A DNA stretch of 64,000 nt from the human T2T-CHM13v2.0 reference genome, Homo sapiens (GCF_009914755.1 NC_060926.1), one strand, 5' to 3'; positions 10,433 to 14,717 are shown, counted from the stretch's first letter. Notes: generated by a model not told the origin, from the letters alone. Translations and numbers: made by a program.

Positions 10433-11992
10433 CATATAAGATATAAATTAAAATAAAATTAATTAAATATATATTTAATTTCATTGCTGCAATTCTACCT
10501 AGTGTCTCACATAAATACAAGATCATCATCTACTGATTAGCTTGCTCCTGCAGACAATCGGATAGATACTAAAACCTCCTGAAGGTCATCATAACCTCAT
10601 TTTCTGAAAGCATCCCTTGAAGTTCAATAGCTTAGAAAGTTTCTGTTGCATTTGTGTCCCTTGCTGGGTTGTATATACATAAAAAGGGATATTACTTTCA
10701 TTCAGAGAAGATAATAAAACCTTGTGATTTAGGAAACAGGGTTATCATCAAATAAGCCTTTTATTTATGCTATTCAGACTGCCTATCTTCAGGATATCGC
10801 AAGTACTGATCAATTTCAGGTCAATTGGATGTGTGAAATAGAAGTGTTGTGGTATAAGCTCATGATTATGTCCTGTAGCTTGAAACAGTGAATTTGATTA
10901 CATGACATGTTGCTGTACCCTCTTTGGTCTTATTGTCTGCACACTTCAAATAATCTACCTGTGCCAACTCTAACAGCCCATTTCATTCTCTAGGAAATAA
11001 CCTTGATATAACTCTAACCATTTCTTCATGGTGTTAGAAATTATAAACTCATACCACCTTCATCCTTAGAACTTTTTAACTCTAGTCCCAATATCATTAT
11101 CCAGGATTCTGGGCAGGCTGCCATATAGCACTGTGATGGATAAATACAAATGGGTGTGGGATTTGCTGAAGGGTGTCTAGGCTCAGAAAATTGCCATTGT
11201 GCCTTTACATCCAAGAGCGCCTCACAAGATTACAATATTTTGTGACTCCTTAACCTTGGAAACTAGAGTCCATGAGACTTTTCTAAGATCATAACAACTT
11301 TCAGGAAAGGAGATAATTTTCTGTACCTCAGAAAATTCTGAGGTACAGGTCTGGCCACTTTTACTTCAGGCCACCACCTTAGTTACACTGGACCTTAATT
11401 ATCATGGCAAAAATGTGAAGCATCAATTTTTGACTCCTTTACATTGAAATAGATAGTTTATGGGTGCTTAGACTGTCAAAGCTCTCCTTTATCAGTGTTC
11501 TTTTCTCTAATTTACAAAATATATTTTGTTGTTTTGTTGCACTTTGCTGAGTTATTTATATTCCCCTTGTACAGATGCTAGCATATCAATAAATAGTTTA
11601 TATATTTTATAACATCACAGAAAACATTTATTGAGGGCCTTTGACTCTAGTCATTATCATTACTTTTCACAAACTTGCAAGATGATTTCTAAGAAATTCT
11701 CATTAAACTCTTTTAAAGTTTAAATTCGAACATATTTTCTCAGCAACTTTTCTTTGCTTTTAAAGAACTTTGGCTCCTTGCACTAACAGAATACCATCAA
11801 ATCAGTTCTACTCCTATGTAGTAAGACAAATTTTATCTTTTTCCATAGAATTGAATAATTTCATGATACTAGTTTAAGAATAAGGCTTGAAGATGCTGAT
11901 TTGCAACTGATACTGGTGCATCAAGTATCATAAAATTCCTTAAGAACAATAAATAAGTAAACATATATTTTAAGTGAAAAGTTATTAATGTT

Positions 11993-12223
11993 TTTTTCTT
12001 TTTAAAATACATTTTATTGTGTATATTTGAGATTTACAACATGATGTATGGGGTACATATAGATAAATGGTTACTATAGTGAAGCAGATCAACATATTCA
12101 TCACTTTACGTAATTACTTTTCTGAGACAAGATCAGCTAAAATCTACTTATTTAACAAAAATATCTAACATAGAATTGCATCTCATGTTACACATTAGAT
12201 CTCTGATTTATCCTGCATACTTT
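11993..12223 (-). mobile_element. L1MA (L1MA4A-like) 3'-end fragment, probably transduced by the adjacent L1PA
   Basis: ttttattgtgtatatttgagatttacaacatgatg...ggttactatagtgaagcag...cagctaaaatctactta...cattagatctc. Confidence 0.8.
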
Positions 12224-14673
12224 GTTTTTTTTTTAAATTTTATTATTATTATACTTAAAGTTTTAGGTTACATGTGCACAATGTGCAGGTTAGTTACATA
12301 TGTATACATGTGCCATGCTGGTGTGCTGCACCCATTAACTCGTCATTTAGCATTAGGTATATCTCCTAATGCTATCCCTCCCCACTTCCCCTACCCCACA
12401 ACAGTCCCCAGAGTGTGATGTTCCCCTTCCTGTGTCCATGTGTTCTCATTGTTCAATTCCCACCTATGAGTGAGAACATGCGGTGTTTGGTTTTTTGTCC
12501 TTGTGATAGTTTACTGAGAATGATGATTTCCAATTTCATCCATGTCCCTACAAAGGACATGAACTCATCACGTTTTATGGCTGCACTGCATAGTATTCCA
12601 TGGTGTATATGTGCCACATTTTCTTAATACAGTCTATCATTGACGGACATTTGGGTTGGTTCCAAGTCTTTGCTGTTGTGAATAGTGCCGCAATAAACAT
12701 ACGTGTGCATGTGTCCTTATAGCAGCATGATTTATAGTCCTTTGGGTATATACCCAGTAGTGGGATGGCTGGGTCAAATGGTATTTCTAGTTCTAGATCC
12801 CTGAGGAATCGCCACACTGACTTCCACAAGGGTTGAACTAGTTTACAGTCCCACCAACAGTGTAAAAGTGTTCCTATTTCTCCACATCCTCTCCAGCACC
12901 TGTTGTTTCCTGACTTTTTAATGATCACCATTCTAACTGGTGTGAGATGGTATCTCATTGTGGTTTTGATTTGCATTTCTCTGATGGCCAGTGATGGTGA
13001 ACATTTTTTCATGTGTTTTTTGGCTGCATAAATGTCTTCTTTTGAGAAGTGTCTGTTCATGTCCCTTGCCCACTGTTGGATGGGGTTGTTTTTTTCTTGT
13101 AAATTTGTTTGAGTTCATTGTAGATTCTGGATATTAGCCCTTTGTCAGATGAGTAGGTTGCGAAAATTTTCTCCCATTTTGTAGGTTGCCTGTTCACTCT
13201 GATGGTAGTTTCTTTTGCTGTGCAGAAGCTCTTTAGTTTAATGAGATCCCATTTGTCAATTTTGGCTTTTGTTGCCGTTGCTTTTGGTGTTTTAGACATG
13301 AAGTCCTTGCCCATGCCTATGTCCTGAATGGTAATGCGTAGGTTTTCTTCTAGGGTTTTTATGGTTTTAGGTCTAACATTTAAGTCTTTAATCCATCTTG
13401 AATTAATTTTTGTATAAGGTGTGAGGAAGGGATCCAGTTTCAGCTTTCTACATATGGCTAGCCAGTTTTCCCAGCACCATTTATTAAATAGGGAATCCTT
13501 TCCCCGTTGCTTGTTTTTGTCAGGTTTGTCAAAGATCAGATAATTGTAGATATGCGGCGTTATTTCTGAGGGCTCTGTTCTGTTCCATTGATCTATATCT
13601 CTGTTTTGGTACCAGTACCATGCTGTTTTGGTTACTGTAGCCTTGTAGTATAGTATGAAGTCAGGAAGAAGTTGAATCTCTGAATAGACCAATAACAGGC
13701 TCTGAAATTGTGGCAATAATCAATAGCTTACCAACCAAAAAGAGTCCAGGACCAGATGGATTCACAGACGAATTCTACCAGAGCTACAAGGAGGAACTGG
13801 TACCATTCCTTCTGAAACTATTCCAATCAATAGAAAAAGAGGGAATCCTCCCTAACTCATTTTATGAGGCCAGCATCATCCTGATACCAAAGCCAGGCAG
13901 AGACACAACCAAAAAAGAGAATTTTAGACCAATATCCTTGATGAACATTGATGCAAAAATCTGCAGTAAAATACTGGCAAGCCGAATCCAGCAGCACATC
14001 AAAAAGCTTATCCACCATGATCAAGTGGGCTTCATCCCTGGGATGCAAGGCTGGTTCAATATATGCAAATCAATAAATGTAATCCAGCATATAAACAGAA
14101 CCAAAGACAAAAACCACATGATTATCTCAATAGATGCAGAAAAGGCCTTTGACAAAATTCAACAATCCTTCATGCTAAAAACTCTCAATAAATACGGTAT
14201 TGATGGGACGTATCTCAAAATAATAAGAGCTATCTATCTATGACAAACCCACAGCCAATATCATACTGAATGGGCAAAAACTGGAAGCATTCCCTTTGAA
14301 AACTGGCACAAGACAGGGATGCCCTCTCTCACTACTCCTATTCAACATAGTGTTGGAAGTTCTGGCCAGGGCAATTAGACAGGAGAAGGAAATAAAGGGT
14401 ATTCAATTAGGAAAAGAGGAAGTCAAATTGTCCCTGTTTGCAGATGACATGATTGTATATCTAGAAAACCCCATTGTCTCAGCCCAAAATCTCCTTAAGC
14501 TGATAAGCAACTTCAACAAAGTCTCAGGATACAAAATCAATGTACAAAAATCACAAGCATTCTTATACACCAGTAACAGACAAACAGAAAGCCAAATCAT
14601 GAGTGAACTCCCATTCACAATTGCTTCAAAGAGAATAAAATACCTAGGAATCCAACTTACAAGGGACGTGAAG
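12224..14673 (-). mobile_element. L1PA3-like (L1PA2-4), 5'-truncated with 5' inversion: non-inverted part 12224-13665 (-), inverted ORF2 segment 13662-14673 (+); disrupted ORF2 RT/C-terminal remnants
   Basis: ORF2 peptides [43 protein letters not shown] (+) and [31 protein letters not shown] (-); 3'UTR gtcatttagcattaggtatatctcctaatg; TSD aagttattaatgtt at 11979-11992 and 14676-14689. Confidence 0.95.
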
Positions 14674-14717
14674 AGAAGTTATTAATGTTGAAACAGTTCA
14701 GTTAATGTTGCCTGCAG

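What the first reader, a model, noticed from the sequence alone, without database searches (positions are those of the whole stretch)
11976..14689. L1PA3-like insertion carrying a probable 3' transduction made of an older L1MA end
Seen: the TSD aagttattaatgtt (14/14; 16/17 extended) lies at 11979-11992 and 14676-14689. It brackets both the young L1 (12224-14673) and a ~230-bp L1MA4A-like 3' fragment (11993-12223) lying beyond the L1's own poly(A). No duplication is visible at the L1PA/L1MA boundary. On the minus strand the L1MA piece supplies AATAAA (tttatt ~12012-12017) just before a second short A tail. Known: L1 transcripts read through weak poly(A) signals and mobilise their 3' flank. Inference: the source L1 sat inside a same-orientation L1MA and borrowed its poly(A) signal, so the fragment acts as a barcode for the parent locus.
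Basis: partly seen in the sequence, partly recalled or inferred. Interest (0 to 1): 0.7.

Follow-up and report, generated by a model that had tools for sequence, protein, structure and literature searches.

The report
LINE-1 tag from a vanished parent
A broken LINE-1 jumping-gene copy in an intron of SPAG16 carries a 230-base tag that matches one spot on chromosome 14 where no such LINE-1 sits today, likely marking the site of a parent element that has since been lost; this is a known kind of event, neatly preserved.

Summary
Observation confirmed and extended. One 14-bp target-site duplication (11979-11992, 14676-14689) encloses a 2.45-kb L1PA-type fragment and a 230-bp tag (11996-12225) beyond its A tail. 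The tag maps to one locus, C14:38,493,224-38,493,456: 5 substitutions and one 3-nt gap, against 78-83% identity for other family copies, with 18 substitutions and 5 deletions shared only by the pair. At chr14 the old repeat continues about 235 nt past the junction, but no L1PA is there. So the source locus is found and the predicted full-length parent is absent: a 'parentless' 3' transduction, described in dogs and apes. Best reading (0.8): a polymorphic source L1 sat there, read through to the old repeat's AATAAA, and was later lost. Main rival (0.12): a template switch from a cellular RNA. Unexplained: the only other genome copy in all three rare-variant lists is a separate twin-primed L1 about 180 kb away in the same gene, either a sibling or gene conversion. 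Interest 0.3.

The parts
11979..11992 (.). Target-site duplication, copy at the 3' (tail) end of the insertion
11993..11995 (-). Three A residues found neither in the chr14 source nor in the TSD: likely remnant of the added poly(A) tail
11996..12225 (-). Transduced tag: 3' end of an old L1M-type repeat copied from C14:38,493,224-38,493,456
12013..12018 (-). AATAAA of the old repeat, 17 nt before the end of the shared sequence
12226..13665 (-). L1PA-type 3' segment: own A tail (12226-12234), 3' UTR and the C-terminal part of ORF2 (first-primed cDNA)
13662..13665 (.). 4-nt overlap (microhomology) at the inversion junction
13662..14673 (+). Inverted ORF2 segment, about codons 442-778, frameshifted near 14235 (second-primed cDNA); about 282 nt of L1 are missing between its end and the start of the minus-strand segment
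14676..14689 (.). Target-site duplication, copy at the 5' end (14673-14689 if extended to 16/17)

Best explanation
This is a single, 5'-inverted LINE-1 insertion whose last 230 bases match one old repeat on chromosome 14, likely copied along when a since-lost parent LINE-1 at that spot was transcribed past its own end. Shown: one TSD around both pieces; the inversion with its overlap and deletion; the unique chr14 donor; an empty, uninterrupted donor site. Inferred steps: (1) a full-length L1PA3-age element inserted at C14:38,493,456/457, inside the old repeat and in the same orientation; (2) its transcript read through its own weak signal and was cleaved about 17-19 nt past the old repeat's AATAAA; (3) ORF2p nicked the chr2 site, primed on the new tail, and the second DNA end primed internally (twin priming); (4) the daughter persisted in the lineage of this genome while the parent allele was lost or is absent from this haplotype.
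For: TSD outside both pieces and none at the inner boundary. Donor: best hit after self 96% by BLAST against 75-86% for the other 38 scored loci, 40 of 875 candidates scored; in alignment 226/233 against 78.5-83% for 15 of 15 family copies; 18 substitutions and 5 deletions shared by chr2 and chr14 against the majority of those 15. Donor continues ~235 nt upstream, colinear with family copies. Differences split evenly: 2 substitutions plus 1 deletion on chr2, 3 substitutions on chr14. Tag divergence 5/230 = 2.2% (95% CI 0.7-5.1%), compatible with the L1's 1.8% non-CpG distance from the majority of 11 relatives (P = 0.18). The chr14 junction reads TTTGT/AT on the nicked strand, 2 mismatches from the endonuclease consensus; 11 of 438 positions in that repeat score as well. 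AATAAA 17 nt before the end and a U-rich stretch downstream on chr14; cleavage 10-30 nt after the signal is the norm (PMC5673974, passages). Order L1 then foreign sequence is that of 3' transduction, whereas described chimeras carry the foreign RNA 5' of the L1 (PMC11838501, Introduction). Parentless sources are common: only 3 of 27 dog transductions mapped beside a LINE-1 (PMC13141329, passages); 23 primate cases had no donor L1 within 5 kb (PMC4862182, section 14).
Against: The parent is not seen: no L1PA at the junction, and the only L1PA in the 20 kb examined is 8.4 kb away, on the opposite strand, 5'-truncated and 94.5-95.2% identical. No second insertion carries the tag (2 loci genome-wide at up to 3 mismatches). 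The added tail is only 3 nt, so internal priming on the A-rich end is not excluded. The endonuclease-like junction separates poorly from a template switch onto a poly(A) tail: 10 of 26 T-rich ends in the repeat also have A next. The published parentless cases I read are polymorphic insertions, not old ones.
Confidence: 0.8

Rival explanations
1. Reverse-order chimera: ORF2p began on a cellular RNA that ended at the chr14 AATAAA, copied 230 nt, then switched template (or the RNAs were joined) onto the poly(A) tail of an L1 RNA. No L1 ever sat at chr14.
For: Explains the pristine donor site directly. The cDNA end at the switch would be T-rich and could pair with an A tail. The donor has a canonical-looking poly(A) site. 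Template switching and RNA ligation are accepted routes to L1 chimeras (PMC11838501).
Against: Described chimeras have the L1 at the 3' end, attributed to cis preference. It needs trans priming, a switch and twin priming in one event. No transcript over the chr14 site is known to me, and I could not check annotation or expression there. An absent parent is already expected under the simpler model.
Confidence: 0.12
2. The parent did become fixed at chr14 and was later removed precisely by recombination between its own target-site duplications.
For: Leaves the same uninterrupted site as seen.
Against: Precise deletion is rare compared with loss of a polymorphic insertion (own knowledge); nothing in the sequence favours it.
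Confidence: 0.04
3. Two independent events at chr2: an old repeat or an orphan retrocopy of the chr14 piece was there first, and the L1PA inserted at its edge.
For: Nested insertions are common (own knowledge); the tag has its own AATAAA and A-rich end.
Against: No duplication at the inner boundary (6 nt, at chance level) while the outer 14 nt match exactly. The tag is 97% identical to chr14 and shares its private deletions, so it is no independent old copy, and its age matches the L1's.
Confidence: 0.02
4. A more distant same-strand L1 on chr14 read through and was spliced onto the old repeat.
For: Only 11.5 kb upstream of the junction were examined.
Against: The base pair before the junction is AT, not AG, and the upstream sense sequence is purine-rich with no pyrimidine tract; the L1's own A tail is retained at the junction.
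Confidence: 0.02

Closest known systems
L1 3' transduction (PMC5673974, PMC9311842, bioRxiv 10.1101/2021.07.12.451456; passages read)
   Same: TSD around L1 plus downstream tag; L1's own tail kept; tag ends 10-30 nt after a downstream AATAAA; interchromosomal donor; 230-nt length within the 7-997 nt range reported for polymorphic human cases.
   Different: The tag is itself an old repeat rather than unique DNA, and no L1 lies upstream of the donor.
'Parentless' transductions in dogs (PMC13141329, passages) and donor-less class 1 transductions in apes and macaque (PMC4862182, section 14)
   Same: Tag maps to one reference locus with no adjacent donor L1; explained there by a dimorphic parent.
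   Different: Those are polymorphic, recent insertions whose parent may still segregate; this one is about 2% diverged from its donor, so the parent is likely extinct.
Twin-primed (5'-inverted) L1 insertions (PMC5673974, passages)
   Same: Inverted 5' segment, deletion at the inversion point, 1-5 nt microhomology (4 nt here), seen in 16 of 35 transductions there.
   Different: The deletion here is about 282 nt against 3 nt in their worked example; the inversion lies in ORF2, not in the tag.
U6/L1, Alu/L1 and mRNA/L1 chimeras (PMC11838501, Introduction and passages)
   Same: One TSD around L1 and non-L1 sequence in the same orientation.
   Different: There the foreign RNA is 5' of the L1; here it is 3' of the L1 tail.

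Membership tests
L1 3' transduction | One TSD encloses L1 and extra 3' sequence | tested here: met
   14-bp exact TSD outside both; 6-nt best match at inner boundary
L1 3' transduction | Extra sequence has a near-identical donor copy elsewhere | tested here: met
   C14:38,493,224-38,493,456; 5 substitutions and one 3-nt gap
L1 3' transduction | Poly(A) signal 10-30 nt before the end of the tag | tested here: met
   AATAAA 17 nt before the end of shared sequence
L1 3' transduction | Non-templated poly(A) after the tag | tested here: inconclusive
   Only 3 extra A (11993-11995)
L1 3' transduction | Same-strand source L1 directly upstream of the donor copy | tested here: not met
   Donor site empty in this assembly; hence filed as the parentless kind, not as a transduction with known parent
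Parentless 3' transduction | Tag maps to one locus with no adjacent donor L1 | tested here: met
Parentless 3' transduction | Parent L1 present at the donor site in another haplotype or species | not testable with these tools
   No other primate or human genomes held
Twin-primed L1 | 5' segment inverted relative to the 3' segment, inside one TSD | tested here: met
Twin-primed L1 | Microhomology and deletion at the inversion point | tested here: met
   4-nt overlap 13662-13665; about 282 nt missing against relative L037
Twin-primed L1 | Target end complementary to the internal priming site | tested here: inconclusive
   5 nt just outside the left TSD copy (11974-11978) equal L1 bases 14668-14672, but 3 nt separate them from the right TSD copy
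L1PA3 subfamily | Diagnostic positions against the subfamily consensus | not testable with these tools
   No repeat library; 2.3% (1.8% non-CpG) from the majority of 11 best-hit relatives fits by recall only
L1MA4A subfamily (tag) | Diagnostic positions against the subfamily consensus | not testable with these tools
   Shown only to be the A-tailed 3' end of a family whose copies are about 80% alike
Template-switch or ligation chimera (U6/L1 type) | Foreign RNA 5' of a 3'-terminal L1 | tested here: not met
   Order is L1 then foreign sequence (definition)

The most novel reading that the evidence does not exclude
The window's L1 and the separate twin-primed L1 about 180 kb away in SPAG16 are sibling offspring of the same vanished chr14 parent, the only two surviving copies with its private variants, and they landed together because they were inserted at the same time into one chromatin domain of one germ cell: a germline fossil of clustered, synchronous retrotransposition.
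Probability: 0.25. Interest if true: 0.6.

Novelty: new member of a known kind. Interest (0 to 1): 0.3.

Why it matters
As it stands, it is a clean example of a known process and has no evident function: the L1 is truncated, inverted and frameshifted. Its value is as a fossil: it gives, to the base, the former address of an active hominoid L1 that this genome no longer holds, testable at once in ape and human pangenome assemblies. Pipelines that require an L1 at the donor, or an unmasked unique tag, would likely miss such cases, so a census of them could measure how often active source elements were lost. The close relative 180 kb away would matter more if it proved a sibling (clustered germline insertion) or a kilobase-long conversion at that distance.

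Tried and rejected
Sibling insertions with the same tag: none; 2 loci (self, chr14) at up to 3 mismatches, and the tag end plus chr14 flank gave no third close copy among 40 of 348 candidates scored. The 11 best-hit L1 relatives and the 3 copies have no chr14 tag after their tails. The L1PA 8.4 kb from the chr14 donor as parent: rejected, as it is on the opposite strand, starts at the end of ORF1 and is 94.5-95.2% identical. The neighbour L1 as parent or copy of the window's L1: rejected, as it is truncated, has other breakpoints and its own TSD, and each holds sequence the other lacks. An inversion between the two chr2 copies: rejected, as each keeps its own matching TSD pair. The chr4 and chr12 hits as siblings: rejected, 5.5% divergent and absent from the other two rare-variant lists. 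Splicing onto the tag: no acceptor. My first junction 7-mer was indexed 3 nt off and was corrected; the multiple-alignment count of 12 shared states was replaced by 9 from pairwise alignments. Szak 2003, the journal version of the T2T repeat paper, and two ids I tried for Xing 2006 and Khan 2006 were not held.

Full report
1. Observation. The 14-mer AAGTTATTAATGTT lies at 11979-11992 and 14676-14689 and nowhere else in the window at up to one mismatch (shuffle mean 0.13); it extends to 16/17. Against the right end of the insertion the longest common substring is 14 nt at the outer boundary and 6 nt at the L1/tag boundary; 2,882 random 61-mers gave at most 11. One duplication therefore encloses both pieces. 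The hub's masking (12214-14675) covers the young L1 only.

2. Anatomy of the L1. It is in two orientations. The 3' part (own A tail, 3' UTR, C-terminal ORF2) is on the minus strand at 12226-13665; an ORF2 segment of about codons 442-778 is on the plus strand at 13662-14673 and is frameshifted near 14235. The two overlap by 4 nt, and about 282 nt present in uninverted relatives are missing. This is the twin-priming pattern; in one tumour series 16 of 35 transductions were inverted and 10 of 16 had 1-5 nt microhomology (PMC5673974, passages). Five bases just outside the left TSD copy equal the last bases of the inverted segment (11974-11978 and 14668-14672), as an internal primer would need, but three bases between them and the right TSD copy leave the exact stagger (14, 17 or 19 nt) open. 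The 3' segment differs from the majority of 11 best-hit relatives at 33 of 1,414 sites (2.3%; 1.8% without CpG-type changes). L1PA3 is put at about 12.5 million years (PMC13434735, passages).

3. The tag and its donor. A genome search with 11993-12225 gave, after self, one hit at 96% (C14:38,493,224-38,493,456) and then 75-86% for the remaining 38 loci; 40 of 875 candidates were scored. C14 is taken as chr14 because the window's chr2 is C2. The shared stretch is 11996-12225, with 5 substitutions and one 3-nt gap. Aligned with 15 of the 28 other family loci (those that covered the junction best), chr2 matches chr14 at 226 of 233 positions and the others at 78.5-83%. The pair shares 18 substitutions and 5 deletions against the family majority. 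Polarised by the family, 2 substitutions and the gap are on the chr2 side and 3 substitutions on the chr14 side, as expected of neutral drift after copying. The 2.2% distance (95% CI 0.7-5.1%) is compatible with the L1's own age (P = 0.18). The chr14 copy is the donor: it is about 470 nt long and runs about 235 nt past the point where the chr2 tag meets the L1 tail.

4. The parent is missing. There is none: the chr14 repeat is colinear with family copies across the junction and shows no duplication there (best 6 nt). In the 20 kb examined the only L1PA lies 8.4 kb away, on the other strand, 5'-truncated and 94.5-95.2% identical. No third locus carries the junction (2 matches genome-wide at up to 3 mismatches) or the tag end (40 of 348 candidates scored).

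5. Mechanism. The tag ends 17 nt after AATAAA, and chr14 has a U-rich stretch further downstream, so cleavage there is plausible; but only 3 A are new, so internal priming is not excluded. The chr14 junction reads TTTGT/AT on the strand that the endonuclease would nick. Scored against a recalled 7-nt consensus (the paper read gives TT/AAAA; PMC11838501), 11 of 438 positions in the repeat do as well. That is good evidence against a random breakpoint and weak evidence against a template switch onto an A tail, since 10 of 26 T-rich ends also have A next. The order L1-then-foreign is that of 3' transduction; described chimeras put the foreign RNA first. Missing parents are well known: in dogs 3 of 27 transductions mapped next to a LINE-1 and the rest are called parentless (PMC13141329, passages); in macaque, orangutan and chimpanzee 13, 9 and 1 had no donor L1 within 5 kb (PMC4862182, section 14). 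I put 0.8 on a polymorphic parent that was lost, 0.12 on a reverse-order template switch, 0.04 on precise excision, and 0.02 each on nested insertion and on splicing.

6. An unexplained neighbour. Looking for copies that share the L1's rare variants, a 29-nt pattern with two of them matched 4 loci, one with a third matched 19 loci against 5,676 with any base at that site, and one with a fourth matched 36 loci. Only two loci are in all three lists: the window's L1 and an L1 at C2:~214,838,650-214,840,720, about 180 kb away, on the plus strand and inside the SPAG16 span given by the hub. It is a separate twin-primed insertion with other breakpoints, its own TSD of about 17 nt and no chr14 tag. 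In the shared 3' block the two differ at 32 of 1,145 sites (the 11 relatives: 38-52) and share 9 of the window copy's 27 non-majority states, 2 of them selected by the search; in the 5' blocks they differ at 19 of 581 and share 0 of 11. Chance placement of one sibling this near is about 1 in 8,000 (368 kb of 3.1 Gb; an after-the-fact figure). Either they are siblings from one source, which would fit an active parent now lost, or one converted the other soon after insertion. Against conversion, Alu conversion is reported to act within about 10 kb (PMC8230782, passages) and the tract would exceed 1.1 kb; against siblings, nothing is shared in the 5' blocks. Synchronous L1 insertions are described in tumours, where they mediate translocations and inversions (bioRxiv 10.1101/2024.08.27.596794, passages); here both TSD pairs are intact, so there was no exchange. 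I leave this near even.

7. What is known. 3' transduction is textbook; the T2T repeat preprint lists 183 high-confidence L1 3' events in CHM13v1.0 (10.1101/2021.07.12.451456, passages). Its Table S13 is a preprint supplement that I could not see, and Szak 2003 was not held, so this locus may already be listed. One search for SPAG16 with L1PA3, transduction and retrotransposon (at least 3 of 4 terms) returned 73 papers; none of the 15 listed contained SPAG16. PMC6191304 and PMC9311842 were read as passages only; the first added nothing on this question.

8. Verdict. Real feature; a new member of a known kind (parentless 3' transduction, twin-primed), with the donor fixed to the base and the parent inferred. 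No function is suggested. Interest 0.3, part of it for the unexplained neighbour.

Noticed in passing
L052 and L055 (G000:C2:~214,838,650-214,840,720): A separate twin-primed L1PA-type insertion with its own ~17-nt TSD, about 180 kb from the window's L1 inside SPAG16; the only other genome copy in all three rare-variant lists. Sibling or gene conversion, unresolved.
   Followed up: partly
L032:6835-10000 (G000:C14:~38,501,835 onward): 5'-truncated L1PA on the plus strand starting at the end of ORF1, apparently nested in an older LTR-like element (resemblance recalled); 94.5-95.2% identical to the window's L1; not the parent.
   Followed up: yes
L002:~711-1400 (just downstream of the chr14 donor): About 700 nt that look like a solo LTR on the plus strand, with TG...CA ends and an AATAAA (resemblance recalled, not tested); opposite in orientation to the donor repeat.
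   Followed up: no
window 15329-15486: AT-rich tandem array of a 16-26-nt unit containing TAAAGAAAT, 640 nt right of the insertion.
   Followed up: no
window 38518-40695: An older L1 fragment (73-75% to young L1 copies) whose two parts match an L1 in an arrangement worth checking for inversion; interrupted by masked repeats.
   Followed up: no
window 11626-11651 and 14994-15019: 26-nt inverted pair, 88% complementary, on either side of the insertion; probably remnants of old repeats.
   Followed up: no
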